Notes: generated by a model not told the origin, from the letters alone. 52,279 nt of DNA from an uncultured Ruficoccus sp. (GCA_965140785.1 OZ223483.1:1-52279), one strand, 5' to 3'. Shown: positions 12,893 through 43,888, counted from the stretch's first letter. A program made the numbers and translations.

Positions 12893-13001
12893 TCCGGGCT
12901 TACGCAGCCCGGACCCGCGGCAAGCGAAGCTTGCATTTTCGATGCTGCGCATCGTGTCTGCGATTGCTGGAATCAGTTTCCCTGATTCCAGCAATCGCAG
13001 A
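12893..13001. repeat. Cluster of intergenic hairpins including a perfect 20-bp inverted repeat
   Basis: TCCGGGCT/AGCCCGGA, GCAAGC/GCTTGC, CGATGC/GCATCG, and TCTGCGATTGCTGGAATCAG-tttcc-CTGATTCCAGCAATCGCAGA (12957-13001). Confidence 0.8.
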
Positions 13002-13186
13002 GCAAAGCATCAAAACGGGGCTACCTGCTTAAAGATCGTGTACCGATTGTGGACAGGAGCCTTTCCGACTCGGAAGGGCAAATCCATCCTTTAATCTCCG
13101 GTAAAGACCCCGCAGTAGCCCCTTCCCTCCGCTCGGAGAGGAGGCAACACGATCCGTAGGATCGAGGGTGCAGAGCTGGCCCTTAC

Positions 13187-14641
13187 TTAGTCCACGGTCG
13201 CGGGGCGATCGACCTCGTAAATCCAGGTAGGGTCGTTCAGGTAGAGCCGTCCGAAACTGGGCGAAGAGCCGTTCTGGAGGCGAAAAAGCGAATCCAGCAG
13301 CAAGGGCGCTTCCATCGGTTCATTTAGCTCGAAGCGGACGTAGTTCCAGCCTTTCCACGTGATCGGTTCGCCCGGGCAGCTTACCTTGCGGCCGGTACGG
13401 TCCATGATCACCACAGAAGGAACCAGCCCGGAACCGTCTCCGTAAACCCACATCCCCAGGGCCACCGGCATCGCGTTGATGACGCGAAAGCTCTCCGCGA
13501 CCGGGTTAACCGCGACAGCGCCGCCGCCCTTTTTGAATTGGTAGAGCAACTCCATGCCGCCCTTGCGTACCGTAGGCAGGCCCTCTTGCGGAGCCCCGGC
13601 GCTCAGGGATAGCGTGGCATCCGGAGAAGCCGACGCGCGGTAGGCGGTCAGTTTACCCTCCGTGTCCACGGCATTGAAATTGCCGCCGGGCAGGAACTGG
13701 GTTAGGGGCGACTCAGCCAGGACTATCTTGCGCGCCCCCAGGCCCGCGCCGAGAGTATCGAGCAGCACGACCTGCATGGCGTAGGGGATGTCTTCGTCCG
13801 AGGCCAGCGGGATTTGAAAATCCATCGTCTTCTGCCCGCGCTTCATCGCGACCTCAAACTCGAGCGGGTCAGTCACCGGGTCGGTCTGCAGCCGCAGCTC
13901 GGCCTTGGCCCGGAAAGCTTCACCCGAGGAATTAAGAAAGCTCAGCACCAGCGCCCCGCCCACATCCGGCGAGAGCGAAATATCGATCGGGTTCATGGCC
14001 TCAACTATAATTCGCTGGTTATAACCGTTTGCGCCGATCTCGACGGAGAACGGGGTGGCCTGACGGCCCATGTCGAGCTCATTCTGGACGACGTAGCTCT
14101 CCCCGGGCCGCAGGGCGTACATCCGGGTAGCGTTATCAAGCGAGAGCAGAAAGTCCTGATCGGTCACATTGGTAAAGCGCACCGACAAGGGTACCGTCGT
14201 CGGGCCTTTGACCTGGATGCTGGGCGGCACCCGCGTAGCCGCAGCGGCAATCTCCAACATCGGGTTTTTGCCCTCAGGCACGAGAAAGACCGGCGAACGT
14301 GACAGAGGCAAGAGGACCGCGTTGTTGGGAGCATCCATCTGTCCCATCGCCTGGCCGTCGCTATCGTAGAGGGTGAACATCGTACGGCTGACCGGGATCG
14401 CCACCGTCCCGTCCGAGCCATCGGTCCACCCGGCGATGAGGATGTCCTCTCCCTGCTGAAACAGCAGTACGTGGTCGGTCTGTTCGCCGATTGCCAGGCG
14501 TTTGTTGAATTTAAAGCCCGGCAGAAACTTGTTGATCGCCTCGGCCACGACGATCTCGGGGCTCTGGCTGGCAGCCGGCTGAGCGGAAGCGGGCAGCAGG
14601 GACAGAAAAAGGAGGGGCAAGAATAAGAGGAACCTGGGCAT
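13187..14641 (-). CDS. Secreted hypothetical protein with C-terminal galactose-binding-like/CBM-like module
   Basis: Signal peptide MPRFLLFLPLLFLSLLPASA; C-terminal LGMWVYGDGSG...ITWKGWNYVRF pattern. Confidence 0.7.
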   Translation of the reverse strand: MPRFLLFLPLLFLSLLPASAQPAASQSPEIVVAEAINKFLPGFKFNKRLAIGEQTDHVLLFQQGEDILIAGWTDGSDGTVAIPVSRTMFTLYDSDGQAMGQMDAPNNAVLLPLSRSPVFLVPEGKNPMLEIAAAATRVPPSIQVKGPTTVPLSVRFTNVTDQDFLLSLDNATRMYALRPGESYVVQNELDMGRQATPFSVEIGANGYNQRIIVEAMNPIDISLSPDVGGALVLSFLNSSGEAFRAKAELRLQTDPVTDPLEFEVAMKRGQKTMDFQIPLASDEDIPYAMQVVLLDTLGAGLGARKIVLAESPLTQFLPGGNFNAVDTEGKLTAYRASASPDATLSLSAGAPQEGLPTVRKGGMELLYQFKKGGGAVAVNPVAESFRVINAMPVALGMWVYGDGSGLVPSVVIMDRTGRKVSCPGEPITWKGWNYVRFELNEPMEAPLLLDSLFRLQNGSSPSFGRLYLNDPTWIYEVDRPATVD

Positions 14642-21797: not shown

Positions 21798-23099
21798 ATG
21801 GACGTCGTCCGCATCAGAGGTGGTCAACGCCTCGCCGGTACGGTTGAGATCGGCGGGGCCAAGAACGCCTGCCTGCCCATTTTCGCCGCCTGCCTGCTCA
21901 CTGCCGAGCCGGTCACCATTCGCAACGTCCCCGACCTGAGCGACGTCCGCTTCATGGCGGATATTCTTGAGCGACTCGGGGCCACGGTGGAGCGGCTCGA
22001 CCCGCACACCTGGCGCATCACCGCCGCGCAGGTCGCCACCCGCGCCCCCTACGACCTGGTGCGCAAGATGCGCGCCTCGGTCTGCCTGATGGGGCCGATG
22101 GTCGCCCGCATGAAGCGCGCCGAGGTCTCCCTGCCCGGCGGCTGCGTGATCGGTCCGCGCCCGATCGATCTGCACTTAAAGGGCCTGTCCAAGCTCAACT
22201 GCGGCGTCGAGATCAATGCCGGCTACGTCAAGCTCGACGGCTCCCGCCTGCGCGGGGGCGAGGTCTTCCTCGGCGGTCGCCACGGCAGCACCGTCACCGG
22301 CACGGCCAACATCCTCATGGCCGCCGTGTTGACCCCCGGCAAGACCCGGATCGACAGCGCCGCCTGCGAGCCGGAAGTGGTGGACCTGTGCCGCCTGCTT
22401 ATTTCCATGGGCGCAAAGATCACGGGCGTCGGCAGCCACGCCCTGCACATCGAGGGCGTCGAATCCCTCCACGGCACCGAGCACAGCGTGCTGCACGACC
22501 GGATCGAGGCGGGCACCTACCTGCTGGCAGGAGCCATCACCCGCAGCGACATCACCGTCAAGGGCGCGCAGGCCGAGCACTTGGCCGCGTTTTTGGATAA
22601 ACTTTCCGAGGCCGGGCTGAACTTCGAAATCCAGGACGCGAACACCATCCGCGTGCGCGGAGACACCTCCGACCTGCGCCCGGTGGACGTCATCACCCTG
22701 CCCCACCCGGGCTTCCCGACTGACCTGCAAGCCCAAACCTGCGCCCTGCTCGCGCTGCTGCCGGGCCTGAGCATCGTGACCGAGCGCGTTTACCCGAACC
22801 GCTTCATGCACGTGCCCGAGCTGGGCCGCATGGGTGCGGACATCGCTATCGAGGGTCCCAGCGCCGTGATCAAAGGCGGCGCCCAGCTCTCCGGCGCTCC
22901 CGTCATGGCCAGCGACCTGCGTGCCAGCGCGGCCCTGATCCTGGCCGGGCTCGCCGCCCGCGGCGAAACCTGGGTCCAGCGCATTTATCATCTCGACCGC
23001 GGCTACGAAAAGTTCGACGAGAAGCTCGCCGCCCTCGGCGCCGACGTCGCCCGCCTCAGTGACACCGAGATGCCCAAAGACCTCGCCGTCGAGGCGTAA
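21798..23099 (+). CDS. murA: UDP-N-acetylglucosamine 1-carboxyvinyltransferase
   Basis: GAKNA, MRAS, LPGGCVIGPRPIDLH, DRIEAGT, PGFPTDLQ, DLRA, HLDRGYE. Confidence 0.96.
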   Translation: MDVVRIRGGQRLAGTVEIGGAKNACLPIFAACLLTAEPVTIRNVPDLSDVRFMADILERLGATVERLDPHTWRITAAQVATRAPYDLVRKMRASVCLMGPMVARMKRAEVSLPGGCVIGPRPIDLHLKGLSKLNCGVEINAGYVKLDGSRLRGGEVFLGGRHGSTVTGTANILMAAVLTPGKTRIDSAACEPEVVDLCRLLISMGAKITGVGSHALHIEGVESLHGTEHSVLHDRIEAGTYLLAGAITRSDITVKGAQAEHLAAFLDKLSEAGLNFEIQDANTIRVRGDTSDLRPVDVITLPHPGFPTDLQAQTCALLALLPGLSIVTERVYPNRFMHVPELGRMGADIAIEGPSAVIKGGAQLSGAPVMASDLRASAALILAGLAARGETWVQRIYHLDRGYEKFDEKLAALGADVARLSDTEMPKDLAVEA

Positions 23100-23329
23100 G
23101 GGGGTTCCCTGATCCGCCTCCCTTTTGGGGGAGAAAGGAATTTAACAGGAAGACCGGGAAGAGCGGGAGGAGCGAAAAGAAAGCCCGGCCAGGAGTTGCG
23201 TTCTTATTGGATAAGAACTCTCGCCATGCCTGCATCCCCCGTCACGCGCCCCCACAACCTCCTTGGGATTGATGATGATCAAGAAATTAAGTGGGCTGTT
23301 CGTTTGAGTCGGCGACAATCACCGTTGCC

Positions 23330-23445
23330 CATGCCGCCGCTCCATGCGGAGGCATGAGTGATGCGCGAGCATCACAGGTCCAGGACGATGTCCTGGTCAC
23401 AGGGGCAGGATGATGTCCTGGTCACAGAGGCAGGACTCTGTCTTG
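23330..23445 (-). repeat. Three-hairpin repeat, copy A, with hairpin 1 triplicated at a 25-bp period
   Basis: Minus strand: CCAGGAC-atc-GTCCTGG ACC TGTGATGC-tcgc-GCATCAC ..CATGCCTCCGC-atgga-GCGGCGGCATG; CAGGA units at 23381, 23406 and 23431. Confidence 0.75.
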
Positions 23446-23449
23446 TCGC

Positions 23450-24559
23450 TCAGCCGAAGTACGCCCGCAGCGCGGCGCAAACGGCATCTTGCTGTTCCTC
23501 GGTCATGGTCGGGAACATGGGCAGGTTGACCGCTTCACGGGCGGCGCGCTCGGCCACCGGCATCGAGCCTTCCTGATAACCAAGGTGGGCGTAGCAGGGT
23601 TGCAGGTGCATGGAGCGCGGGTAGTGGTTGGAGGTGCCGATGCCCTGCTCCTTGAGCGTGGCGATCAGCTTGTCCCGCTCGGGAGCGCGCACCGTGTAGA
23701 GGTGGTAAACGCTCTCGCACCCCTCGGCCTCGCGCGGCAGTTCCAGCGGCAGCCCGTCCAGCAACTCGTGGTAGCGGTGGGCCAGGCGGCGGCGGGCCAG
23801 GGTCCAGTTGTCGAGATTGGGCAGGAGCACACCGAGAACGGCCCCTTGAATCGCCTCCATGCGGTAGTTGTAGCCGACCTCGTTGTGGAAATACCGCTCG
23901 AACGAACCGTGGTTGCGCAGGCCCCGCCCACGGGTGGCGAGCGCGTCGGAATTGGTCGTGAGCGCCCCGCCCTCACCGGCGGCGGGCAGATTCTTGGTCG
24001 GGTAAAAGCTGAAGCAGCCCATGTCGCCGATCGCACCCACGCGCTGGCCCTTGTAGCGGGCACCGTGCGCCTGAGCCGCGTCCTCGATCAGGCCGAGGTT
24101 GTGCTTTTGGCAAAGGGCCTTGAGCGCGTCCATCTCGCAGGGATGACCGTAGAGGTGGACAGCGACAATGGCCTTCGTACGCGGCGTGATGGCGGCTTCG
24201 ACCGCCGCCGGGTCCAGGCAGAAAGTGGCCGGGTCGATATCGGCGAAGACGGGCGTCGCCCCCTGATACGAGGCGCACCAGGCCGAAGCGGCAAAGGTGT
24301 AGGGCGTGGTAATGATCTCGTCGCCGGGCCCGATGTCGAGCAGGCGCGTGGCCAGGTGAAGCGCGGAGGTGCCGCTGTTGACCCCGATGCAATGGGCCGC
24401 CTCGCTGTAGGCGGCGAAGGCCTGCTCGAAGGCCTCGACCTTCGGGCCGAGCACGTAATGGCACGAGTCGATGACCTCGGAAATAGCGGCGGCGATGGCC
24501 TCGCGGTGCGGGGAAAGCAGGGACTGCAAGTCCAGCGGCGGAACGAACGGTTGGCTCAT
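23450..24559 (-). CDS. DegT/DnrJ/EryC1/StrS-family PLP-dependent sugar aminotransferase
   Basis: VNSGTSALHLA, IGPGDEII, IEDAAQAHGA, FSFYPTKNL, GYNYRM; start MSQPFVPPLDL. Confidence 0.92.
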   Translation of the reverse strand: MSQPFVPPLDLQSLLSPHREAIAAAISEVIDSCHYVLGPKVEAFEQAFAAYSEAAHCIGVNSGTSALHLATRLLDIGPGDEIITTPYTFAASAWCASYQGATPVFADIDPATFCLDPAAVEAAITPRTKAIVAVHLYGHPCEMDALKALCQKHNLGLIEDAAQAHGARYKGQRVGAIGDMGCFSFYPTKNLPAAGEGGALTTNSDALATRGRGLRNHGSFERYFHNEVGYNYRMEAIQGAVLGVLLPNLDNWTLARRRLAHRYHELLDGLPLELPREAEGCESVYHLYTVRAPERDKLIATLKEQGIGTSNHYPRSMHLQPCYAHLGYQEGSMPVAERAAREAVNLPMFPTMTEEQQDAVCAALRAYFG

Positions 24560-24599
24560 AAAGCCGCTCAGCCTGACAGCTCCCTCCCCCCCGGTCAAG

Positions 24600-24666
24600 C
24601 AAGGGCATAGCCCTTGACCCATGATCCTTGGGATCACCGATGGCATTTCCTGGAGAAATGCCATCG
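24600..24666 (+). repeat. Three-hairpin repeat, copy B
   Basis: CAAGGGC-ata-GCCCTTG ACC CATGATCC-ttg-GGATCAC CGATGGCATTTC-ctgga-GAAATGCCATCG. Confidence 0.8.
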
Positions 24667-24721
24667 AGAATGATCGTTTCGCCGTTGTCATTAATTCGCC
24701 CTCGAGAGATATATGCGCGTG

Positions 24722-25177
24722 ATGACAAATCAGTGGCAGCGTGTGGCAGGTACGGTGATCCCCGGCTATGGGGTCGCCTCCGGCTGCGGCAATGACCCGC
24801 GCTACCCGGCAGGCACACTCGCCCTGCAGTGGCCGCACTTCGTCGCCCGTGGCCTGCCGCTGGAGGGACTTCATCGCGGCACGCTGAACATCGACATCGC
24901 CCCGCGCCGCTTCAAGCTGACCGGCGGGGACTGGTGCTTCCCGGGCGTAGACTGGTCCGCGTATATCCCGCCCGAGACTTTTTCCTTCAGCCGCTGTCGC
25001 CTCATCTGGCGGGGGACCACCCACGAAGCCCTCATCTACTACCCCCACCCCGAGACCAAGCCCGAGCATTTCCAGCGCGATTCGGTGATCGAGGTTCTCG
25101 CCCCCTGGATCGACGGCCTCGGCTACGGCTCCACCGTTGAGCTGGACCTCAGCCCGGGCGTCACTCTGGCCCCCTGA
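24722..25177 (+). CDS. Protein similar to archaeal-type CTP-dependent riboflavin kinase
   Basis: GTVIPGYGVAS, GTLNID, VIEVLAP..GLGYGSTVEL match that family's motif order. Confidence 0.55.
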   Translation: MTNQWQRVAGTVIPGYGVASGCGNDPRYPAGTLALQWPHFVARGLPLEGLHRGTLNIDIAPRRFKLTGGDWCFPGVDWSAYIPPETFSFSRCRLIWRGTTHEALIYYPHPETKPEHFQRDSVIEVLAPWIDGLGYGSTVELDLSPGVTLAP

Positions 25178-25317
25178 CGAGGGGGTGGCTGATCGGCTCT
25201 GAGCAGGGAAACCCCATGGTTACTACCCTAGCCGGAGCACGGGGGCCGCTCATAAAAATGTGTCTATTTCGTTGCAAGGGGAAGCGGTCCGCATAAGCTT
25301 CCCGGCTTTACCACCCG

Positions 25318-27229
<1,912 letters not shown>

Positions 27230-27231
<2 letters not shown>

Positions 27232-27290
27232 TCCGGCTGGACCAGCAATAAGGGGCGCTGCCCCTACGCCGCCAAAAAGGCGGCTACCCC
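27230..27290 (+). repeat. Post-stop repeat family 2, copy 1
   Basis: AGTCCGGCTGGACCAGCA identical to 43790-43807, then AGGGGC/GCCCCT and GCCGCC/GGCGGC hairpins ending TACCCC. Confidence 0.75.
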
Positions 27291-27332
27291 TGCTCGCCCC
27301 CCCTTTTTTCGTGGGCATACCATCCCTCGCGC

Positions 27333-27398
27333 CCATGGCATTTTTCAAAAAAATGCCATCCGGATGCGCAAGCATCCAGGGTCCAGGGCATGCCCTGG
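27333..27398 (-). repeat. Three-hairpin repeat, copy C
   Basis: Minus strand: CCAGGGC-at-GCCCTGG ACC CTGGATGC-ttgc-GCATCC GGATGGCATTTTT-ttg-AAAAATGCCATGG. Confidence 0.8.
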
Positions 27399-27445
27399 TT
27401 TTTATTTGACTTATTCACAATCGGTCGGTATCGAAGGTGCAACCT

Positions 27446-28033
27446 ATGAATGATACGCTGTCCAGAAGGGTCTTGGTCCTGAACCGCCTCTGGCAGGCTG
27501 TCAACATTGTGGGCGTCAAACGGGCGCTCAGTCTGCTCATGCAGGAGCACGCGCAGGTCATTGATACCTGCGACGGAAACTTTAACATCCTTGATGCGGG
27601 ACAGTGGATTGACTACTCGCTGGCCAATCCCCCCACCCTCGACTCGGAGGCCATCCACACCATCCGCCTGCGCCTGCGCCTGCCCAAAGTCATGCTGCTG
27701 CGCCAGTACGACAAGGTACCGACCAAGGAGGTGAAGTTCAACCGACAGAACGTCTTCGAGCGCGATGGGCACGAGTGCCAGTACTGCGGGAATCATTTCC
27801 ACGAGCGCGACCTGAACCTCGACCACATCATCCCGCGCGACATGGGCGGGCGCACCACTTGGGAGAACATCGTCACCTCCTGCATCAAGTGCAACACCCG
27901 CAAGGCCAACCGCCTCCCCCATCAGGCCGGTATGCACCTCAAGCGCAAGCCCGACCGCCCGCGCTACCGCCCCTTTGTCCAGACCATCCCGGTCACCGAA
28001 CGCGAAGACGGCTGGGAGTACTTCCTCAAATAG
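27446..28033 (+). CDS. HNH endonuclease (McrA/COG1403-like with N-terminal VLVLN motif)
   Basis: RRVLVLN; RQNVFERDGHECQYCG, LDHIIPR..GG..TWENIVTSCIKCNTRKAN. Confidence 0.92.
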   Translation: MNDTLSRRVLVLNRLWQAVNIVGVKRALSLLMQEHAQVIDTCDGNFNILDAGQWIDYSLANPPTLDSEAIHTIRLRLRLPKVMLLRQYDKVPTKEVKFNRQNVFERDGHECQYCGNHFHERDLNLDHIIPRDMGGRTTWENIVTSCIKCNTRKANRLPHQAGMHLKRKPDRPRYRPFVQTIPVTEREDGWEYFLK

Positions 28034-28048
28034 CAATCAAGCAGGCAG

Positions 28049-28116
28049 GCAGGACGAAGTCCTGCACCTGTGATGCTGGCGCATCACGGATGGCATTTCC
28101 TGGAGAAATGCCATGG
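28049..28116 (+). repeat. Three-hairpin repeat, copy D
   Basis: GCAGGAC-gaa-GTCCTGC ACC TGTGATGC-tggc-GCATCAC GGATGGCATTTC-ctgga-GAAATGCCATGG. Confidence 0.8.
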
Positions 28117-28339
28117 CGTCATTCGCAGAGCTATTGGGAATGCGCTCTGGTCAGGTAATGGACGGACCGATGAGGCTGCATCGGAATGGTAAGCGACCAG
28201 CTTGGCCAAGCATTCCATCGAATGGCATGAACCCCGTTTCAAATGAAACGGATTAAGCGATGGGGGCGCAGCCACTCTCCAACCGTCCCCGCCTGGGCGA
28301 GAGCACGGGGGACATGACAAGAGGCACGAAGGCCGTGCT

Positions 28340-30655
28340 CTAGGTCCGGGCCATGACTTTCTCGATGGCGGTTTCCCAGGTTTCGCGCAGGGCGTTGACA
28401 TCCCAGGTGAGGGTGTCACCGGCTTTGCAGGACAGGGTCGGCTCGTCCTGCACCTCGCCGATGACAACGGCGTCAATGCCCGCGTCGGTGGCGGCATCCA
28501 GGACGGATTCGACTTTTTTCTGGGAAACGGACAGGAGCACGCGGCCCTGGCTTTCACCGTAGAGAAGCGCGTCGAGACGTCCGGCCTTGTCGGCCATCCC
28601 GGCGAGGTCGAGCTTGGCCCCGTAGGTCTTGCCCGGAGCGAACAGCATCTCGGCCACGGCCGTGAGCAGCCCACCCTCGGAGAGGTCGTGCGCGGCCTTG
28701 ACCCGGCCCGCTCCGATCTGCGCGAGAACGCAGGCGGCGAGGCGCTTCTCGGCCTCCAGGTCCACGGCGGGCGCGGCCCCGGTCTTCAGGTCGTGCATGA
28801 CCTTCAGGTAATAGCTGCCGCCCAGCTCGTGCGGACAGCCGCCGAGCAGGATGAGGTGCTCGCCCACGCCCTTGACGGTCTGGGTGGTGATGTGCTCGGG
28901 GTCGTCCACGATACCGGCCAGCGAAACGACCGGCGTCGGGTCGATCTTCAGATTGACGTTCTCGTTGTAGAGGCTGACGTTGCCGCCGACCACGGGCAGG
29001 TCGAAGGCCCGGCAGGCCTCGGAGAGCCCGCGCACCGACTCCTTCAGCATGTAGAAGGACTCGGGCTTGTTCGGGTTGCCGAAATTCAGGTTGTTGGTCA
29101 TGGCCAAGCCGCGCGCGCCGGAGCAGGCGAGGTTGCGCAGGCACTCGGCCATGGCAATCTTGGCCCCGGTGTAGGGGTCGAGCCAGCAGAAGCGGTTGTT
29201 GCAGTCGTTGGCGATGGCGATGAATTTCTCCTTCTCGCCATCCAGGCGCAGGCGCACGACGGCGGCGTCCGAGCCGGGCTCAATCACCGTGCCGGTCATA
29301 ACCATGTGGTCGTACTGTTCGTACACCCAGCGCTTGCTCGCGATGGTCGGATGCGCAAGGAGCTTGCCCAGCGCGCCGACGAGGGTGGCCTTGTCCGGGG
29401 CGGGCAAGGAGTCGGCCTTCCAGGCGCGGCACTCGGCCATGTAGGCCGGTTCCTGCGCCTCGCGCTCGTAAACCGGGGCCTCATCCGCGAGCTTGGCGGC
29501 GGGGAGCTTGACCACGGGCTTGCCGTGCTGGTTGACGACCATGTCCTCGCCCTCGGTCACGGTGCCGATCTCGACCGCGTGCAGGTCCCACTTTTCGAAA
29601 ATCGCTTCCAGCTCCTTCTCGCGGCCCTTCTGGACGATGACGAGCATACGCTCCTGGCTCTCGGAGAGCATGATCTCGTAAGAGTTCATGCCGGTCTCAC
29701 GCTGCGGAACCTTGTCCAGCTCGATCTCGATTCCGCTGCCGCCACGTCCGGCGGTCTCGCAGGTGGAGCAAGTCAGCCCGGCGGCGCCCATGTCCTGGAT
29801 GCCGACCACGAGCCCCTCAACCGCCATCATTTCGAGGCAGGCCTCGATGAGGAGCTTTTCCATGAACGGGTCGCCCTTCTGCACGGCGGGGCGGTCGGCG
29901 GCGGATTCCTCCGAAAGCTCGCGGCTGGCGAAGCTGGCCCCTCCGAGGCCATCGCGCCCGGTGGGCGGGCCCACGTAGTAAACGGGGTTGCCCACGCCCT
30001 TGGCCGCGCCGCGCTTGATCTGGTCGTGGCGCAGGACGCCCAGGCACAGGGCGTTGACGAGCGGGTTGCCCTCGTAGCACGGGTCGAAGTACACGTCGCC
30101 GCCGACATTGGGGATGCCGATGCAGTTGCCGTAATGGGAAATCCCGTGCACCACCCCGCGGAAGAGCCGCTTGGACTGGGCCGAGGAGAGGTCGCCGAAG
30201 CGCAGGGAGTTGGTCAGCAGGACCGGGCGTGCGCCCATGGTGAAAATATCGCGGATGATGCCGCCCACGCCGGTGGCCGCCCCCTCGAAAGGCTCGACCG
30301 CGCTGGGGTGGTTGTGCGACTCGATCTTGAAGCAGATGGCCCAGCCGTCGCCGATGTCAATGACCCCGGCATTTTCCTCCCCGGCCTTGATCAGCACCTG
30401 ATTGGGCGACTTCGAGTCGGCCTTCTGTGTCGGGAAGGTCTTCAGCAGCGGGCGCGAGTTTTTATAGGAACAGTGCTCGGACCACATGACCGAAAAGATG
30501 CCCAGCTCGGTCAGGTTCGGCTCGCGGCCGATGATTTCCTGGATCAGCTCATACTCCTTGGGCGTGAGGCCGTGCTTATCGACCAGCTCGGGCGTGATCG
30601 GGACGTTCAGGACCGGGTCGGGATTCGGTGGCAGGGATTCGGAAGCGGTGGACAT
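28340..30655 (-). CDS. purL: Phosphoribosylformylglycinamidine synthase subunit PurL (small type)
   Basis: [62 protein letters not shown]. Confidence 0.96.
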
Positions 30656-30712
30656 GGTTATCTAAAAAAAATGAAAGGAGCGGCGGCGGACGTCAACCCC
30701 AGGCGGCAGCGA

Positions 30713-31300
30713 TCAGCCTTGCATGGGCGAGTCCGACGGCCGCTTTGGTGGCTGCTCCGGGGAAGGCCCGGTCTCGTCGGGCTCGGGTTCGCCAGCGGCG
30801 GAAGCCGGTTTTTTCTCGCCGGGAACGGAGTCCAGCTCCTGCGGAGGCGGTTCAGAGGCACCGGGCGGTACAGGCGACGGCTGGACGGGAAGTTCTTCCG
30901 GCAGGCCGGTAACCGCGGCGGACGGCGAGGCGGGCGCCAGGGCGGAAGACTCGGGCGATAAAGCCGTAGGCGGCACGGGCGTGGACGCAGGCTGAGCCGG
31001 GGGTTCCTCGGGCAGGCCCGTGATCGCTGTAGCCGGGGCCGAAGGTAGCGGCGGCGGGGCCTGGGGCTCGTCCGGCTCGGATTCGGCGGGCTCCCTGGCC
31101 ATGAGGCCACCGGCGATGAAGCAGACGGCCAGCCCGATCAGGAGCGTATTAAAAAGCCAGGAGACGGTCGTCAGGTAGTTGAGCGGGCTCTCGTAGTCGA
31201 GGCTGGGCGAGACGAAGTAGTCGAAAAACAGCGCGAAGAGGCCCGCGGCCAGTCCGAAGACCCCGCATACCAGTCCGGCGCATCCCAAGCCCCGGCGCAT
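30713..31300 (-). CDS. Membrane protein with Pro-rich disordered tail
   Basis: Two hydrophobic helices, then a Pro/Glu/Ser-rich tail; ATG 3 bp after the purQ stop. Confidence 0.6.
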   Translation of the reverse strand: MRRGLGCAGLVCGVFGLAAGLFALFFDYFVSPSLDYESPLNYLTTVSWLFNTLLIGLAVCFIAGGLMAREPAESEPDEPQAPPPLPSAPATAITGLPEEPPAQPASTPVPPTALSPESSALAPASPSAAVTGLPEELPVQPSPVPPGASEPPPQELDSVPGEKKPASAAGEPEPDETGPSPEQPPKRPSDSPMQG

Positions 31301-31303
31301 GAC

Positions 31304-31973
31304 TCAGGTCGCCACGGCGGCGAGTTCGAGGAAGGCCCGCAAAATCGGCAGGCCGTCGCAACTGGGCATGAAGGGCTCCACCGCGCGCTCGGGGTGCGGC
31401 ATCATGCCGACCACGTTGCCGCGCTCGGAGCGGATGCCGGCGATGTCGCCGATAGAGCCGTTGGGATTGTCCGCGTAGCGGAAAAGGATCTGCTTGTTGG
31501 CTTCGAGCTGGGCCAAGCCGGCCTCGTCGATGCGGTAGTTACCCTCGCCGTGAGCGATGGGGATGCGCACGCGCTCGCCCAGCTTGCCGGGGTTGAAGTG
31601 CTCGTTGCTGTCCTCGACGATGAGCTCGGAGGTCAGGCAGCGGAACTCCAGGCCGGTGTTGCGCACCAGCGCGCCCGGCAGCAGCCCGGCCTCGCAGAGG
31701 ATCTGGAAGCCGTTGCAAATGCCGATGACCGGCCCGCCCCGCCTCGGCGAAATCCTTCAGCGCGGCCATGACCGGCGAGAAACGCGCGATCGCGCCGCAG
31801 CGCAGGTAATCGCCATAGGAGAAACCGCCCGGCAGCACGACCGCGCCATAACCGGACAGGGAGTCTTCCTTGTGCCAGACCAATTGGGCATCCACCCCGA
31901 GCACGTCACGCACCGCGTGAAGCGCGTCGGTATCGCAGTTGGAGCCGGGAAACTGTAAAATTGCCACCCGCAT
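31304..31973 (-). CDS. purQ: FGAM synthase glutaminase subunit PurQ, with one frameshift at about 31738 (likely sequence error)
   Basis: [23 protein letters not shown] in one frame; [27 protein letters not shown] in the next; one extra G in GCGGGGCGGG. Confidence 0.9.
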
Positions 31974-32190
31974 GGGCCCCCATCATTCCCATCCGCTCCG
32001 CGCTGTCCAGTCTATACCCGAACGAAAAACCCCGGAACCCGAATTAATCGGCGGGATCTTTTTTCCGGCTCTCTGGGGTCAAAAAAATGTCAACCTGCAC
32101 CCGCCCCGGGAATTCGACTTGTTGCCCGGGCTGGCCAGGCTATTATGATTGCCCATAACGGGTGTAAAGAAAACCTCACCCCCTTTTCCC

Positions 32191-32546
32191 ATGCTAGAAG
32201 TCAATATCCGTTATCTGGAGGAAGACATGCGCACTCCCCGCGAGGGCCCCCAGCCCTTTGCCCGCAACGTGGACGCCGACGACCTGCTCGACCTGCTCGA
32301 AGACATCCGCGAGGCCTCCATTGGCCTGGGCACCCACCCCGCCCCCGAGATGTATTTCAGCGACAGCGACGGGCTCCTGCTCGTGCGAGCCGAGGAGGGC
32401 CACCTGGCCTGGTCCCGCCCCGAGATGGAGGGCACCGGCTCCGTCCCCACCACCGCCGAGGAGTTCACCAGCCCTGCCTCTTCCCGGACTTCGAGGAGCA
32501 CGAGGAGGAACCCGAGGAAGATACCCGCGTGTACGCGAACGATTAA
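32191..32546 (+). CDS. Small acidic hypothetical protein, probably frameshifted near 32465 (unshifted frame ends at 32583)
   Basis: MLEVNIRYLEED... continues more plausibly as ...QPCLFPDFEEHEEEPEEDTRVYAND* in the shifted frame. Confidence 0.45.
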
Positions 32547-32563
32547 ACAGGTATCAACTGCTT

Positions 32564-32628
32564 CCATTCTTCACCCCAAGTGAAGACATCCAGATGCGCT
32601 GCATCTAGGATCCAAGGCTATGCCTTGG
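32564..32628 (-). repeat. Three-hairpin repeat, copy E, overlapping the prfA stop
   Basis: Minus strand: CCAAGGC-ata-GCCTTGG ATCC TAGATGC-agc-GCATCTG GATGTCTTCAC-ttggg-GTGAAGAATGG. Confidence 0.7.
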
Positions 32629-33700
32629 CGTTGAGCGCCTCCAGGCGGGCCTGGAGATCGGCGCGGCGAAGCGCCTCGACGAGGTCGTCGAGATCGCCCT
32701 CCATCACCTGGGGCAGCGACAGGCTCAGGCCAATGCGGTGATCAGTCAGGCGGTTCTGGGGAAAGTTGTAAGTGCGGATGCGCTCGGAACGGTCGCCCGT
32801 GCCAATCTGGCTGCGGCGGTTGGCGGCGTACTTCTCCTGTTCCTCGCGCTGCTTCTGCTCCAGCAGGCGTGAACGCATCACGGTCAGGGCCTTGGCACGG
32901 TTCTTGTGCTGGGAGCGCTCGTCGGCGCAGTACACGGTGACGCCGGTGGGCTTGTGGGTCATCTGCACCGCCGAGTCAGTGGTGTTGACGTGCTGCCCCC
33001 CCGCCCCACTGGCGCGGGTAGTGGTGATTTCCAGGTCCTCGGGCTTGATCTCGATATCGACCTCCTCGGCCTCGGGGAGCACGGCCACTGTCGCTGTGGA
33101 GGTGTGAATGCGCCCGCTGGCCTCCGTCACCGGCACGCGCTGCACACGGTGCACACCGGATTCGTACTTGAGGACTTTGTAAACATCCTCGCCGGTGATG
33201 AGGAAGGAGATTTCCTTAAACCCGCCCGCGTCGGACTCGCTCGCGCCCATCGGCTCGACCTTCCAGCCGCGCACGTCGGCGAAGCGCTGGTACATGCGGG
33301 TCAGATCCCCGGCGAAGAGCGAGGCCTCGTCCCCACCAGCCCCGGCGCGGATTTCCACAATCGTGTTGCGCGAATCGCTCGGGTCGGGCGGCAGCATGGC
33401 CAGCAGGAGCTCGTCCCGCTTTTGGGCGACCGCCTCCTCCAGCCCGGCGACTTCCTCCCCAGCCAGTTCCTTGAGTTCAGTGTCGGCCTCGGGATCGTCG
33501 ATGAGGGCGCGATTGCCCGCCAGATCGGCTTCGAGTTTCTCGGCAGCGTCATACATGCCGATGATTTCGCTCAGCCGGGTATGCTCGCGCGAGAGCTCGG
33601 CGGCGCGGCGCTGGTCGGAGAAAAAGTCCGGCTGCGCCATCTGGGCGTCGAGTTCTTCCTTGCGGGTGCGAAACGGAGCGATATCGGGAATGCCTTCCAT
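32618..33700 (-). CDS. prfA: Peptide chain release factor 1
   Basis: [25 protein letters not shown] (PxT motif of RF1), [24 protein letters not shown]. Confidence 0.95.
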
Positions 33701-33756: not shown

Positions 33757-33855
33757 TTTTTCTGGTTCTTAGTTCTTAGTGCTTTGTTCTTGGTTATCAA
33801 ACGACCTGCGACTAATAACTAAGCACAAAGAACCAAGCACGAAGCACCAGAAAAA
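33757..33855. repeat. Inverted arms built of 7-bp tandem units
   Basis: TTCTTAG/TGCTTTG-type units at 33757-33796 mirrored by CAAGCAC/AAAGAAC-type units at 33816-33855. Confidence 0.75.
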
Positions 33856-34887: not shown

Positions 34888-34941
34888 GGGTTTCTCTTTA
34901 CAATGTTGATATTTAAATTATTGACCCGACCCCTTCAGGTG

Positions 34942-35418
34942 ATGCTGGGGGTGTTATTATTAATCCCTTGTTTGGGATGCTCATTGAATAAAGGGCATGA
35001 TGATTTAATGACGGTTTCATTGGATGCATATAATGCTGTAGTAAATAACGATTATGGTGATTTTAAGGATATTGCAGGTACGACTCAACTGAGTAGGATG
35101 GATGAAAGGTATGTTCGTTTTTATTTTAATATGATTAGTGATGAGGTTAGCCGATATCCAATTAAGGATGGGGTCAGCCTCGAGGTATCTGAATACAGCG
35201 AGGGCTGGGTGGATGTTTTAAAGATGCGTTATGACAGCGGGGTTTTTTCTGTATTTAATGATGATTGGAAATATTACGAGGTGTTTTATGTTTTTGCTGA
35301 TGAGCGCTCATTTACGCTGACATTTGTGAAGACGAGAACTGATATTTTCTTATTAATACCCATATACAAGAAACCCATGCCTATCGAAGACAAGATAGGG
35401 GGTCAGCCAAAGAGATAA
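34942..35418 (+). CDS. Putative lipoprotein, cassette gene 1 (start uncertain; ORF is open from 34903)
   Basis: Hydrophobic stretch and lipobox-like LGC; AT-rich codons; last codons (GGQPKR*) derive from the repeat. Confidence 0.6.
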   Translation: MLGVLLLIPCLGCSLNKGHDDLMTVSLDAYNAVVNNDYGDFKDIAGTTQLSRMDERYVRFYFNMISDEVSRYPIKDGVSLEVSEYSEGWVDVLKMRYDSGVFSVFNDDWKYYEVFYVFADERSFTLTFVKTRTDIFLLIPIYKKPMPIEDKIGGQPKR

Positions 35419-35422
35419 GGGC

Positions 35423-35494
35423 CAGGTCAATAATTTAAATATTGATTGCAGTCTGACTTGTGTAGTTATTCTATATGATTAACATGACCCCTTC
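35423..35494 (+). repeat. Inter-cassette hairpin spacer, copy 1 (72-bp core)
   Basis: CAGGTCAATAATTTAAATATTGATTGCAGTCYGACTTGTGTAGTTATTCTA-WATK-ATTAACATGACCCCTTC; 3 differences from copy 2. Confidence 0.9.
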
Positions 35495-35522
35495 ATTTAC
35501 CTGACCCCTTCATTTACCCTAA

Positions 35523-35936
35523 ATGAAAAATATATTTATTTATTTGTTTGGTGCATTTATTTTTGTGTTTTATGGTTGTGGGCCAGGTGTTATGGACTCC
35601 TCAAAAGAAATACGCAACGGATACTATTTTTATAGAAACAATTCAATCGATCAATTCATTGCACCTAAAGTTTGGAATGATGATACCCCTATGATTCCAT
35701 CGCGTGTAGTTAGATATGAAGTTGCGGAAAGATATGTTTCAGCAAAAAGAGAGACTATTGCTGTTGGAAGTTCTGGCTCTCGTATCGGTTCCGGCCATTA
35801 TGACTACTGGTTATTGGACACGCAGTCTCCATGCGTCTATGGGCCGTTTACATTTGGTGATCTTGAGAAGAAGATTAATGAAATGAACTTACCTAAATCA
35901 TTAAGTCAGAGGGGGACGAAGGGATCAGGTCAATAA
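35523..35936 (+). CDS. Putative lipoprotein, DUF3997-like, cassette gene 2
   Basis: MKNIFIYLFGAFIFVFYGC signal/lipobox; IPSRVV...YWLLD...VYGPFT pattern (family assignment from memory). Confidence 0.65.
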   Translation: MKNIFIYLFGAFIFVFYGCGPGVMDSSKEIRNGYYFYRNNSIDQFIAPKVWNDDTPMIPSRVVRYEVAERYVSAKRETIAVGSSGSRIGSGHYDYWLLDTQSPCVYGPFTFGDLEKKINEMNLPKSLSQRGTKGSGQ

Positions 35937-35968
35937 CTAAACGTTGCAGGGGGTCAGGCCGAAGAGGT

Positions 35969-36040
35969 CAGGTCAATAATTTAAATATTGATTGCAGTCC
36001 GACTTGTGTAGTTATTCTAAATTATTAACATGACCCCTTC
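35969..36040 (+). repeat. Inter-cassette hairpin spacer, copy 2 (72-bp core; 80-bp palindrome at 35961-36040)
   Basis: Near-identical to 35423-35494; arms GAAGAGGTCAGGTCAATAATTTA and TAAATTATTAACATGACCCCTTC pair at 20 of 23 positions. Confidence 0.9.
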
Positions 36041-36072
36041 GTCTCTTATGACCCCTTCATCTCTTATGCGTT

Positions 36073-36861
36073 ATGAATAAAGAAGATTTTAACATCTATA
36101 ATTCTTTGTACTTTTATAAGATGGACAAGTCCTGCCTCTTCCAGCTTTTAGCGGAAACTGACTACTTGGCGTTCAGAAATATGTGCCTATTAGAGCAACC
36201 AGCTATTTCGTTAATACTTTTTGCAGGACAGCAGACGATTGAAAAGTCTCTGAAGGCGATCATCTTGCTACATGGCGGAAAGACAAACAATTTCGGACAT
36301 GATTTACTAAATCTCTATAATGAAGCGAAGAAACTAGAGCCGAAGTTGCAGAGGCAAAACACGGCGATGTTCGATAAGCTAATAACAGAATTCAATGGTG
36401 CAGAGTTTTCGAGGTATGCATCTTCCGATATTCGTGTTGAAGAGTTACTGCACAAGCGCCTAGACACCTTTTTCATAACGCATCTCAGAAAAGCGTTTTA
36501 TGATGCTTACTACTCGGTAAACGGAAGTATTCGGATTCCCGACAAATTTACCGAAATACTCACCTACGCGAAATGGTTCCCGAACTCGCATCATGCGTTA
36601 ACTTTTGATAATCAATCGTTAGGATTCACGAACCCAGGTCAGATATCGACCATCAGACCAATCAGCTATAAGATAAAACCTGTGATTATTCTGGGCGAGC
36701 AGGAATGCAAGAATCAGAAAGAATTAGAAAAACGACTTGGTATTCGAATTTCAAACACTGAGTTTCAGCAGACATTTCTCTTGGAAGATGAAGAGCAAGA
36801 GGTTCTAGAGTCACCCGATCTTATGAATGAGTTAATTAATAGAAGAAATCAATGTTCATAA
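36073..36861 (+). CDS. HEPN domain protein, cassette gene 3
   Basis: DYLA...QQTIEKSLKA...GHDLLNL...SRY is the classical HEPN pattern, plus a C-terminal extension. Confidence 0.75.
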   Translation: MNKEDFNIYNSLYFYKMDKSCLFQLLAETDYLAFRNMCLLEQPAISLILFAGQQTIEKSLKAIILLHGGKTNNFGHDLLNLYNEAKKLEPKLQRQNTAMFDKLITEFNGAEFSRYASSDIRVEELLHKRLDTFFITHLRKAFYDAYYSVNGSIRIPDKFTEILTYAKWFPNSHHALTFDNQSLGFTNPGQISTIRPISYKIKPVIILGEQECKNQKELEKRLGIRISNTEFQQTFLLEDEEQEVLESPDLMNELINRRNQCS

Positions 36862-36869
36862 CAAGTCGT

Positions 36870-36934
36870 CAAAAGATAAGGGGTCCAAAAGATAAGGGGT
36901 CCAAAAGATAAGGGGGCATCAAAAGATAAGGGGG
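36870..36934 (+). repeat. Four tandem copies of CAAAAGATAAGGGG
   Basis: Copies start at 36870, 36886, 36902 and 36920 and run into the right terminal repeat. Confidence 0.9.
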
Positions 36935-37132
36935 CAGGTCAATAATTTAAATGTTGATTTCAATCCTCGGCTTTCCGCCGAGGCATGCGGGTGGCGAGAT
37001 CTGTCCGCACACTGTTTCCGGGTGCGCTTTACCCATCTGTTCAAGCATGGAAACGACTAAAAGATTTAAAGTGTCGGGCCGGTGTATGGCTGTTAACTGG
37101 GACGCTAACCCGCAGGAGCGGCGCGGTGTGTC

Positions 37133-37148
37133 CGGCACGGATTTTGCA
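37133..37148 (+). promoter_or_regulatory. Candidate sigma54 (-24/-12) promoter upstream of gltB
   Basis: CGGCAC-GGATT-TTGCA matches YGGCAC-N5-TTGCW. Confidence 0.55.
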
Positions 37149-37213
37149 GCACATTTCGGGGCAATCCGGCGAAAACTGCGATTTACCGCCCCGCGGGCGG
37201 GCTGCTAAGCCGT

Positions 37214-42123: not shown

Positions 42124-42130
42124 CATTAAC

Positions 42131-43767: not shown

Positions 43768-43789
43768 CAAGCGCTCGGCGCTTGACCCG

Positions 43790-43888
43790 AGTCCGGCTGG
43801 ACCAGCATTCAGGGGCTACGCCCCTAGCGGGTTACACCCGCTGGCTTTCAGGGGCAAGCCCCTACGGAGCCAGAAAGGCTCCTACCCC
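43790..43888 (+). repeat. Post-stop repeat family 2, copy 2
   Basis: AGTCCGGCTGGACCAGCA, two AGGGGC/GCCCCT hairpins and GGAGCC/GGCTCC, ending TACCCC. Confidence 0.75.

What the first reader, a model, noticed from the sequence alone, without database searches (positions are those of the whole stretch)
23330..32628. Dispersed three-hairpin element with compensatory base changes (at least 5 copies in 9 kb)
Seen: copies at 23330-23396 (-), 24600-24666 (+), 27333-27398 (-), 28049-28116 (+) and 32564-32628 (-) share one layout: 7-bp stem, ACC-like linker, GATSC/GSATC stem, then a longer stem with a short, usually 5-nt, loop (CTGGA, ATGGA, TTGGG). Stem sequences differ but stay paired (CAGGAC/GTCCTG, AAGGGC/GCCCTT, CAAGGC/GCCTTG). 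Three copies sit just 3' of a stop codon in sense orientation, one overlapping the prfA stop. Inference: a structure-selected REP-like mobile repeat or an RNA motif affecting mRNA stability or termination. I do not recognise it as a named family.
Basis: partly seen in the sequence, partly recalled or inferred. Interest (0 to 1): 0.75.

Follow-up and report, generated by a model that had tools for sequence, protein, structure and literature searches.

The report
Three-hairpin palindromic repeat at gene ends
A roughly 70-base DNA repeat made of three perfect hairpins in a fixed order sits just behind the stop codons of unrelated housekeeping genes in a verrucomicrobial genome, and it looks like a lineage-specific cousin of the REP/BIME repeats of E. 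coli rather than a new RNA gene.

Summary
All five copies are real (covariance-model scores 72-87 bits, E 2e-15 to 5e-19). They fold into three adjacent hairpins (z -4.9 to -7.2).

The window holds two more divergent copies at 12916-13006(+) and 13117-13189(-). A related MAG, Verrucomicrobiota bacterium JB024, holds six.

Across the 13 copies, 95.5% of stem cells pair and 16 of 24 pairs carry changes on both sides. Almost none are G-U, so these are Watson-Crick palindromes.

There is no Rfam match, no GTAG/CGTC tag, no terminal inverted repeats or target duplications, and no U-tract. No transposase appears in about 90 kb.

JB024 contig L017 is syntenic with window 23457-32551. The same spacers carry copies there, but at other positions, in other orientations, or with swapped modules. 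This points to turnover at the DNA level.

Hairpin 1 faces the nearest stop codon in 9 of 10 evaluable copies. It often starts exactly at that stop codon.

Best reading: a REP/BIME-like modular palindromic repeat lying in 3' UTRs. It is a new variant of a known kind, of moderate interest.

The parts
23329..23396 (-). Copy 1: hairpin 1 (CCAGGAC/GTCCTGG), ACC linker, hairpin 2 (GTGATGC/GCATCAC), hairpin 3 (ATGCC.CCGC/GCGG.GGCAT). It lies behind the stop of the DegT/PseC-like aminotransferase gene (stop at 23450-23452).
   Evidence: R1 87.3 bits, E 4.6e-19. MFE gives three hairpins, z -5.59. Gene.
23397..23446 (-). Two extra tandem 25-nt units of hairpin 1 plus linker. They are 88% and 72% identical to the unit inside copy 1 and fill the gap up to the aminotransferase stop codon.
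   Evidence: the repeat finder family D16; sequence.
24600..24666 (+). Copy 2, in the 153-nt spacer between the divergent starts of the aminotransferase gene (start codon read by eye at about 24560, - strand) and ORF 24713-25177(+). It has an orthologous copy in JB024 (L017 8920-8994).
   Evidence: R1 85.3 bits; z -5.27; pairwise alignment A4.
27333..27398 (-). Copy 3, antisense, between the class-II glutamine amidotransferase gene (25318-27231 +) and the HNH gene (27437-28033 +). On the + strand its hairpin 1 followed by TTTTTATTT reads as an intrinsic-terminator-like site.
   Evidence: R1 82.8 bits; z -5.26; terminator scan site 27383-27398(+).
28049..28116 (+). Copy 4, in sense orientation 12 nt after the stop codon of the HNH endonuclease gene (TAG at 28034-28036).
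   Evidence: R1 86.4 bits; z -7.17.
32564..32628 (-). Copy 5. The prfA stop codon (32618-32620) lies in the loop of hairpin 1, so the last four prfA codons are encoded by the element.
   Evidence: R1 71.8 bits; z -4.89; prfA; sequence.
12916..13006 (+). Copy 6 (divergent), 41 nt after the stop of the BacA/UppP gene. Hairpin 3 is a 20-bp perfect palindrome.
   Evidence: R1 33.8 bits, E 1.8e-6; R2 50.4 bits (though this copy was part of the set R2 was built from); z -8.60; gene.
13117..13189 (-). Copy 7 (decayed; hairpin 1 is broken). It starts 1 nt after the TAA stop of ORF 13187-14698(-).
   Evidence: R1 28.1 bits, E 4e-5; R2 60.1 bits (also part of the R2 training set); fold z -0.54.
43768..43888 (+). 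Variant hairpin array that abuts the gltD stop TAG (43765-43767). It has a hairpin-1-like stem (CAAGCGC/GCGCTTG) plus ACCC, followed by 'type II' hairpins. A classical terminator follows at about 43916-43947.
   Evidence: R2 20.5 bits, E 0.009; sequence; DNA fold z -5.19; repeat D19.
27232..27290 (+). 'Type II' hairpin array (GTCC..GGAC, GGGGC..GCCCC, CGCCGCC..GGCGGC, TACCCC). It starts at the base after the amidotransferase stop TAG. Relatives lie at window 43789-43888, L017 17482-17534 and L017 about 9600-9643.
   Evidence: Repeat D19; regex hits; sequences; fold.

Best explanation
This is a lineage-specific, REP/BIME-like modular palindromic DNA repeat in a Ruficoccus-like member of the Puniceicoccales (Verrucomicrobiota).

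The standard unit is about 65-70 nt. It has three Watson-Crick-perfect hairpins in a fixed order and polarity, H1-ACC(C/T)-H2-(N)GG-H3.

Shown:
- The unit is repeated.
- Its stems differ between copies yet stay paired.
- Copies lie in spacers or over the last codons of unrelated housekeeping genes.
- H1 faces the nearest stop codon.
- Copies are gained, lost, shifted and recombined module by module between two genomes that share 79-90% nucleotide identity across this region.

Inferred:
- The family spreads and is homogenised at the DNA level. The likely routes are insertion through a hairpin-forming single-strand intermediate and/or gene conversion between nearby copies. The enzyme was not found in the sequence available.
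- Because the copies lie between stop codon and terminator, they are transcribed into 3' UTRs. There the three stable stem-loops, with the strongest last, most likely block 3'-to-5' exonucleases.
- Where H1 abuts the stop codon, it may slow terminating ribosomes, as reported for E. coli REPs.
- One antisense copy has been co-opted as the hairpin of an intrinsic terminator.
For: Repeat family. There are 13 copies at E<=7e-5 in 89,963 bases: 7 in the window and 6 in JB024. The other 47 loci scanned (part of 712,580 bases) gave 0 hits at E<0.01.

Structure.
- 95.5% of 291 cells are paired, against 77.9% in shuffles (0 of 500 reach the observed value) and 34-40% when partners are slid by 1-3 columns.
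- 16 of 24 pairs have changes on both sides.
- The cells comprise 274 Watson-Crick, 4 G-U, 2 A-C and 11 other. Three of the four G-U cells sit in one doubtful outer pair.
- The pair flanking GAT..ATC in H2 takes all four Watson-Crick types (T-A 4, A-T 4, C-G 4, G-C 1; 13 of 13 paired), read off the rows printed.

Turnover. L017 is syntenic with window 23457-32551.
- In the amidotransferase-HNH spacer, the JB024 copy is sense and starts in the stop codon. The window copy is antisense, about 100 nt further on.
- In the geneX/prfA spacer, the orientations are opposite.
- At the one orthologous copy, H1 plus its linker has been replaced as a unit: three pairs change on both arms while the left flank, H2 and H3 are conserved.

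Modularity.
- The H1 unit is tandemly triplicated (D16).
- Two types of H3, and 'type II' hairpins, combine freely with H1 and H2.

Location and polarity.
- 9 of 10 evaluable copies are sense to the nearest stop codon (P=0.011).
- 5 of 8 evaluable arrays start within -2..+1 nt of the stop (P about 3e-7 under uniform placement).
- prfA and JB024 queD end inside the element.

Literature on REPs.
- REPs are mostly downstream of genes, have sub-families with alternative complementary stems, and can enter ORF ends (PMC3733652, passages).
- REPs raise mRNA stability and can terminate transcription (PMC3479197, passage).
- REPs can regulate translation termination (PMC6815119, one passage).
Against: - No transposase of any kind was found among the ORFs scanned in the window, L017 and L037. 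No TSD or TIR is present, so mobility is inferred only from differences between two genomes.
- Copy number may be low. The exact H3 pattern occurs in only 2 places in the JB024 assembly, and 5 of the window's 7 copies lie within 9.3 kb. This is unlike classical high-copy REPs.
- The 4 syntenic spacers that carry a copy in the window also carry one in JB024. The strict polarity towards stop codons points the same way. Both would also fit selection for a function at the RNA or translation level.
- The sample is small: 13 copies from two genomes. Two JB024 copies were found through a pattern on H3. Alignment A3 is fitted to the model, so its pair counts lean towards that structure.
- No expression or 3'-end data exist.
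Confidence: 0.6

Rival explanations
1. The element is a structured 3'-UTR RNA kept by selection at the RNA level. It could be an mRNA stabiliser, a protein-binding site or a translation-termination modulator. On this view the hairpins are maintained because the RNA must fold, and presence in particular spacers is itself selected.
For: - Sense polarity towards the nearest stop codon in 9 of 10 evaluable copies.
- H1 starts at the stop codon far more often than uniform placement predicts (5 of 8).
- The 4 syntenic spacers occupied in the window are also occupied in JB024.
- Very stable folds: z -4.9 to -8.6 in 6 of 7 window copies.
- A T-G wobble extends H2 on the sense strand in several copies (MFE, rows).
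Against: - Stems are almost purely Watson-Crick (274 of 291 cells; 4 G-U versus 2 A-C), so both strands fold equally well.
- One copy is antisense (27333) and one orthologous pair lies in a divergent promoter spacer.
- The host genes share no function: aminotransferase, HNH, prfA, uppP, queD and amidotransferase.
- Orthologous spacers carry different copies at different positions.
- No Rfam family matches.
Confidence: 0.25
2. The elements are Rho-independent transcription terminators. They look repeated only because terminators share a hairpin shape.
For: They lie at gene ends and have GC-rich stems. On the + strand, the antisense copy at 27383-27398 followed by TTTTTATTT matches the terminator consensus.
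Against: - 0 of 13 copies have 5 or more T in any 8-nt window after H3 in sense orientation.
- The terminator scan of 22900-32900 picks up only that one antisense hairpin among the five copies.
- Linkers and loops are conserved in sequence (78% mean column identity), which convergent terminators would not show.
- A classical terminator follows the variant array after gltD, so the arrays lie upstream of the real terminator.
Confidence: 0.05
3. The repeat is mobilised or homogenised by the neighbouring HNH endonuclease, in the way REPs flank their RAYT gene. That would explain why copies cluster around this gene in both genomes.
For: - The HNH gene has a copy on both sides in the window (27333-, 28049+, as inverted repeats, I10) and in JB024 (L017 10463-10534 and 9638-9702).
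- 5 of the window's 7 copies and 4 of the 5 on L017 lie within about 5 kb of the HNH gene.
- The exact H3 pattern is otherwise almost absent from the JB024 assembly.
- H2 is a short restriction-site-like palindrome.
Against: - The protein belongs to a large conserved family: 5022 hits at E<=0.001, 58-93% identical among the 120 listed, in Ruficoccus, Rubellicoccus, Cerasicoccus, Coraliomargarita and Lentimonas. It keeps its synteny with the amidotransferase gene, so it does not look mobile.
- The flanking copies are inverted in one genome and direct in the other.
- Only the generic HNH domain is recognised.
- No biochemical or comparative test was possible.
Confidence: 0.07

Closest known systems
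REP sequences and BIMEs of enterobacteria and pseudomonads (REP/RAYT system)
   Same: - Short GC-rich palindromes, repeated and extragenic.
- Mostly downstream of genes and sometimes reaching into ORF ends.
- Sub-families whose stems differ but stay complementary.
- Assembly of units into mosaics.
- Proposed roles in mRNA 3'-end protection, termination and translation termination.
(PMC3733652 passages; PMC3479197 passages; PMC6815119 passage.)
   Different: - No conserved GTAG or CGTC tag: GTAG in 1 of 13 copies, CGTC in 3 of 13 at unrelated positions.
- Stems are perfect, without a conserved bulge.
- The unit is three different palindromes in one fixed order and polarity, not two REPs in inverse orientation.
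- No RAYT was seen in about 90 kb.
- Copies are clustered and possibly few rather than in the hundreds.
GTAG-17 to GTAG-20 REP families of Opitutus terrae (Verrucomicrobia), Di Nocera et al. 2013, PMC3733652
   Same: Same phylum. Small palindromes with 6-9-bp stems, several coexisting families, close-packed dimers, and frequent overlap with coding ends (passages).
   Different: - The sequences differ. REP-encoded peptides of O. terrae (Additional file 3, part 1 of 3) match no six-frame translation of the 13 copies better than 3-5 of 7-8 residues.
- O. terrae REPs often lie inside genes, whereas none of the 13 copies does.
- Figure 1 with the consensus sequences is not held, so the DNA consensus could not be compared directly.
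Bacterial MITEs (Correia/NEMIS, RUP, BOX, ERIC, RPE)
   Same: Small non-autonomous intergenic repeats that are transcribed into mRNAs, fold into stem-loops and can alter mRNA stability. BOX elements are also modular. (PMC3479197 passage; PMC2229807, search listing and abstract only; the rest is recalled.)
   Different: No terminal inverted repeats (0-9 of 14 positions match) and no target-site duplication (the longest shared flank word is 2-4 nt and is not at the junctions).
Integron attC sites
   Same: Structure-conserved, sequence-variable imperfect palindromes that start at or overlap the stop codon of the preceding ORF and share its orientation (recalled, not from a call).
   Different: - The R'' / R' core motifs are found in only 1 of 13 copies.
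- The host genes are housekeeping genes on both strands.
- No integrase was seen.

Membership tests
REP (GTAG/CGTC-tagged repetitive extragenic palindromes) | Conserved terminal tetranucleotide GTAG (or CGTC) at one foot of the hairpin, kept in more than 90% of members and required for RAYT binding and cleavage (PMC3733652 and PMC3479197 passages) | tested here: not met
   GTAG occurs in 1 of 13 copies and CTAC in 2 of 13. CGTC occurs in 3 of 13 at three different positions, and GACG in 1 of 13. The 4 nt before H1 have no consensus. The only conserved flank is ACC(C/T) 3' of H1.
REP (GTAG/CGTC-tagged repetitive extragenic palindromes) | Unit is a single 20-40-nt palindrome with a 6-9-bp stem | tested here: inconclusive
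   Each of the three hairpins on its own has this size: 7-bp, 5-9-bp and 6-20-bp stems. However, the repeated unit is the ordered triplet of about 65-70 nt.
REP (GTAG/CGTC-tagged repetitive extragenic palindromes) | Association with a RAYT (Y1/HUH) transposase gene flanked by the repeats | tested here: inconclusive
   No Y1_Tnp or any other transposase domain was found among the ORFs scanned in the window, L017 or L037. Only about 90 kb of two genomes could be seen.
REP (GTAG/CGTC-tagged repetitive extragenic palindromes) | High copy number, dispersed over the chromosome | tested here: inconclusive
   The window has 7 copies in 52 kb, 5 of them within 9.3 kb. JB024 has 5 on a 17.7-kb contig and 1 in a 20-kb locus. 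Only 2 exact H3-pattern matches occur in the whole JB024 assembly held in genome contigs. Whole genomes could not be scanned.
REP (GTAG/CGTC-tagged repetitive extragenic palindromes) | Extragenic, mainly downstream of coding regions, with sub-families of alternative complementary stems | tested here: met
   All 13 copies lie in spacers or overlap at most the last 28 nt of an ORF. 9 of 10 evaluable copies are sense to the nearest stop. 16 of 24 pairs have changes on both sides.
BIME | [quoted passage not shown] | tested here: not met
   The unit is three different palindromes in one fixed order and polarity. The reverse strand scores only 13-19 bits against 72-87 bits for the sense strand.
MITE | Terminal inverted repeats and a target-site duplication | tested here: not met
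   TIR identity is 0-9 of 14. The longest word shared by the two 14-nt flanks is 2-4 nt and is not at the junctions.
Rho-independent terminator | GC-rich hairpin followed directly by a U-tract | tested here: not met
   0 of 13 sense copies have 5 or more T in any 8-nt window within 20 nt of the end of H3. Only the antisense hairpin 1 of copy 27333 qualifies.
Any Rfam 15 family | Score at or above the family's gathering threshold | tested here: not met
   The whole window at the gathering threshold gives only 6S RNA at 7033-7214. Region 23000-33000 at E<=5 gives 0 matches.
Integron attC | R''(RYYYAAC) and R'(GTTRRRY) core sites at the ends (recalled definition) | tested here: not met
   Each motif is found in 1 of 13 copies with 10-nt flanks, on either strand.

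The most novel reading that the evidence does not exclude
This could be a new class of non-autonomous hairpin element. It would lack the GTAG/RAYT signature, TIRs and TSDs. It would be placed directionally, hairpin 1 first, exactly at stop codons of whatever gene it enters. It would spread mainly over short distances. The agent would be an enzyme other than a Y1 transposase, conceivably the conserved HNH endonuclease that is flanked by copies in both genomes. Alternatively, the process could be coupled to translation or transcription termination.
Probability: 0.1. Interest if true: 0.7.

Novelty: new variant of a known kind. Interest (0 to 1): 0.35.

Why it matters
Small palindromic repeats shape the 3' ends of bacterial mRNAs and drive local genome rearrangement. 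They are well studied only in a few proteobacteria.

This family gives Verrucomicrobiota (Puniceicoccales) a defined, modelled example (covariance models R1 and R2). It has three features worth testing:
- a fixed three-hairpin grammar without the GTAG tag on which the RAYT mechanism depends;
- a strict hairpin-1-first polarity towards stop codons, often starting at the stop codon itself;
- rapid module swapping between copies.

If the stop-codon placement proves to be targeting rather than selection, it would point to an unknown insertion mechanism. If not, the family is still useful. It can serve as an annotation mask, because it creates false ORF extensions and supplies new C-termini and stop codons for prfA and queD. 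It can also serve as a strain-typing marker.

Tried and rejected
- Rfam: no match at the gathering threshold or at E<=5 over 23000-33000.
- blastn (distant mode) of one copy against plasmids and phages: no match.
- Genome-wide collection scan with the H3 pattern: 49 loci. Of these, 47 were single chance palindromes in unrelated taxa with no model hit. Only the two JB024 loci were informative. The window's own genome was not found in the collection.
- Model R2, rebuilt from the 13 copies, found no further full copies in the window, L017 or L037. The best new hit was 22.3 bits, on the reverse strand of a known copy. The variant array at 43764 scored 20.5 bits.
- HNH gene as a mobile cargo flanked by inverted copies: rejected as the main reading. 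The gene belongs to a large conserved family and is syntenic. It is kept only as a low-probability rival.
- Attributing the amidotransferase-HNH inversion to recombination between elements: rejected. Only one junction carries a copy in each genome.
- Classical REP, BIME, MITE, attC and intrinsic terminator: each failed a defining feature.
- IS200/IS605-like targeting: no conserved tetranucleotide lies 5' of H1. The definition used is recalled.
- A stop-codon-like TRR target: found directly 5' of H1 in only about 6 of 14 cases, by reading.
- Identity with Opitutus terrae REPs: not supported by the peptide comparison. Additional file 1 of that paper held nothing relevant.
- Literature: PMC5009743 was listed for 'REP sequences' but the held text has no such passage. 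Searches for 'Verrucomicrobia' plus 'repetitive extragenic palindromic', for 'JB024' or 'Verrucomicrobiota' and for 'Ruficoccus' found no description of this repeat. That is the basis for saying it is not in print in the held library.
- The Liang, Rudd and Deutscher 2015 paper on REPs near stop codons is recalled. It was seen only as a citation in PMC6815119.

Full report
OBSERVATION

When aligned in a common orientation they share 72-78% mean column identity.

Each folds on its own into three adjacent hairpins:
- H1, a 7-bp stem with a 2-3-nt loop;
- H2, GATSC..GSATC, extendable to 7-9 bp;
- H3, about 10 bp with a 3-5-nt loop.

The linkers are ACC(C/T) and (N)GG. Fold energies lie 4.9 to 7.2 standard deviations below dinucleotide shuffles, and 0 of 200 shuffles do as well.

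A covariance model of the five (R1) was run over the whole window with filters off. It returns them at 71.8-87.3 bits (E 2e-15 to 5e-19). It also returns two further, more divergent copies at 12916-13006(+) (33.8 bits) and 13117-13189(-) (28.1 bits; decayed, fold z -0.54). The next hit is 17.1 bits.

RELATIVES AND ORGANISM

Rfam 15 has no match. One copy finds nothing in the plasmid or phage collections.

R1 then hit only the two loci from 'Verrucomicrobiota bacterium JB024': five copies on L017 and one on L037. The other 47 loci gave nothing at E<0.01 in a search of 712,580 bases. Those 47 serve as a negative control.

The HNH protein of the window is 91% identical to that of Ruficoccus sp. 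ZRK36. It has 5022 homologues, among them proteins of Rubellicoccus, Cerasicoccus, Coraliomargarita and Lentimonas (taxonomy). The window therefore comes from a Ruficoccus-like member of the Puniceicoccales. This inference rests on one protein plus the synteny described below.

PAIRING

The 13 copies were aligned to the model as A3. Results:
- 95.5% of 291 stem cells form standard pairs.
- Shuffled partners give 77.9% (0 of 500 shuffles reach the observed value).
- Sliding partners by 1-3 columns gives 34-40%.
- 16 of 24 pairs have changes on both sides (47 cells).
- Only 1 cell is changed on one side.

Listing the cells gives 274 Watson-Crick, 4 G-U, 2 A-C, 11 other and 21 gapped. Three of the four G-U cells lie in one doubtful outer pair.

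Read directly from the rows printed, the pair next to GAT..ATC in H2 is T-A in 4 copies, A-T in 4, C-G in 4 and G-C in 1. That is 13 of 13 paired, using all four Watson-Crick types.

Caveats:
- A3 is fitted to the model.
- Two JB024 copies were ascertained through H3.
- Repeat copies are related to one another.

The pairing is real, but it is palindromic: both strands fold equally well. It therefore does not by itself show selection on an RNA.

CONTEXT

All 13 copies lie in spacers or overlap at most the last 28 nt of an ORF. The host genes are unrelated in function: a DegT/PseC-like aminotransferase, a class-II amidotransferase, HNH, prfA, uppP, queD and unknown ORFs.

Orientation relative to the nearest stop codon on either side:
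- 9 of 10 evaluable copies are sense, with H1 facing that stop (P=0.011).
- All 7 scored copies in convergent spacers are sense.
- The exception is 27333(-).
- Three copies could not be evaluated. Two are 24600(+) and its orthologue L017 8920, which lie in a divergent-start spacer. The third is L017 3675, whose upstream ORF is unverified.

H1 starts within -2..+1 nt of the stop in 5 of 8 evaluable arrays (7 scored copies plus the variant at 43768). Under uniform placement in the present spacers P is about 3e-7, which is a crude model.

In two further cases the ORF ends inside the element. The prfA stop TAG is in loop 1. JB024 queD reads through H1 and stops at the TAG of the linker.

No sense copy is followed by a U-tract (0 of 13). 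The antisense copy 27333 places its H1 directly before TTTTTATTT, and this is the only one of the five picked up by the terminator scan. After gltD, a variant hairpin array lies between the stop codon and a classical terminator. These arrays are therefore inside 3' UTRs.

COMPARISON WITH JB024

L017 is syntenic with window 23457-32551 at 79-90% nucleotide identity. The amidotransferase-HNH block is inverted. The four syntenic spacers that hold a copy in the window also hold one in JB024, but the copies differ:

(a) Amidotransferase-HNH spacer. JB024 has a sense copy whose stem begins in the stop codon TGA. The window has a 'type II' hairpin array at that spot and an antisense copy about 100 nt further on, next to the conserved HNH upstream region.

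(b) Behind HNH. Both genomes have a sense copy. It abuts TAG in JB024 and lies 12 nt away in the window. The H3 types also differ.

(c) geneX/prfA spacer. The window copy serves prfA and the JB024 copy serves geneX, starting right after its TGA. The JB024 contig ends before prfA.

(d) The divergent-start spacer holds the only positionally orthologous pair. The left flank, the H2 stems and H3 are conserved. H1 plus its linker differs by three fully compensated pairs and matches window copy 28049 instead (also the 91% blastn match). This is replacement of a module, not stepwise compensatory mutation.

Further signs of modularity:
- The H1 unit is tandemly triplicated at 23372-23446.
- H3 comes in at least two types, which combine freely with H1 and H2 variants.
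- A second family of hairpin arrays co-occurs with this one.

WHAT IT IS NOT

- GTAG or CGTC tags are absent.
- There are no terminal inverted repeats and no target duplications.
- attC core motifs are absent.
- No transposase domain appears in the ORFs scanned from the window, L017 and L037.
- Peptides encoded by the Opitutus terrae REP families do not match any frame of the element. The DNA consensus in Figure 1 of PMC3733652 is not held, so that comparison is indirect.

INTERPRETATION

The best reading (confidence about 0.6) is a REP/BIME-like modular palindromic repeat that turns over and recombines at the DNA level and lies in 3' UTRs.

The RNA consequences are inferred from what is reported for REPs: exonuclease block, and an effect on terminating ribosomes when H1 abuts the stop (PMC3479197, passages; PMC6815119, one passage; PMC12320835, one passage).

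The main rival (0.25) is a selected 3'-UTR RNA element. The polarity, the stop-codon abutment and the shared occupancy of spacers speak for it. The Watson-Crick-only stems, the antisense and promoter-side copies, and the positional turnover speak against it. The two readings are not exclusive.

What remains unexplained:
- the exact placement at stop codons of all three kinds (TGA, TAG, TAA), at positions conserved between the genomes;
- the local clustering, with only 2 exact H3-pattern matches in the whole JB024 assembly.

A link to the flanked HNH gene cannot be excluded, but there is no positive evidence for it.

LIMITS

- Only about 90 kb from two genomes could be examined.
- No expression data exist.
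- Copy number, the mobilising enzyme and the function are therefore open.

Noticed in passing
window 27232-27290, 43789-43888; L017 17482-17534, about 9600-9643: A second, co-occurring family of hairpin arrays ('type II': GTCC..GGAC, GGGGC..GCCCC, CGCCGCC..GGCGGC, ending TACCCC/TGCCCC). It also starts directly at stop codons and is sometimes fused to hairpins of the three-hairpin element.
   Followed up: partly
window 33757-33855, 42128-42263, 43961-44166; L037 3388-3422 and 6627-6661: Long imperfect inverted repeats in spacers, built from short reiterated words (GTTCTTAG-like, TTTGAGAG-like, CACGAAG-like; 83-98% complementary arms of 31-41 nt). The TTTGAGAG type recurs in JB024 at 91% identity. 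This may be another repeat family.
   Followed up: partly
window 31304-31973 (-): purQ (GATase_5) is split over two overlapping ORFs in different frames in the window. It is intact (222 aa) in JB024 at L017 16073-16741. The cause is a frameshift or a sequencing error.
   Followed up: partly
window 25251-28035 versus L017 9696-12510: The amidotransferase-HNH gene block is inverted between the two genomes. JB024 also carries an extra small ORF, read by eye as a possible secreted protein, between the amidotransferase gene and purL (L017 12510-13083).
   Followed up: partly
window 34900-37200: A low-GC island (49% against about 62%). Repeated upstream units of about 75 nt (35420-35494 and 35966-36040 are 95% identical; partial copies at 34909-34936 and 36928-36966) precede small ORFs, including a DUF3997 protein and a HEPN-domain protein. 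No PADLOC match was found.
   Followed up: partly
window 7033-7214 (-): 6S RNA (RF00013, 77.3 bits), the only Rfam match in the window.
   Followed up: no
L017 10427-10498 (+): An H1-like hairpin plus ACCC lies on the opposite strand, next to the palindromic H3 of copy 10463-10534(-). This may be a remnant of a head-to-head pair sharing H3 (R1 18.3 bits).
   Followed up: no
window 23489-24610 (+), 25264-27375 (-), 28688-30961 (+): Long antisense 'shadow' ORFs with no family match. The hairpin copies extend some ORFs artificially; for example, the 539-aa reading of the aminotransferase gene runs through copy 24600.
   Followed up: no
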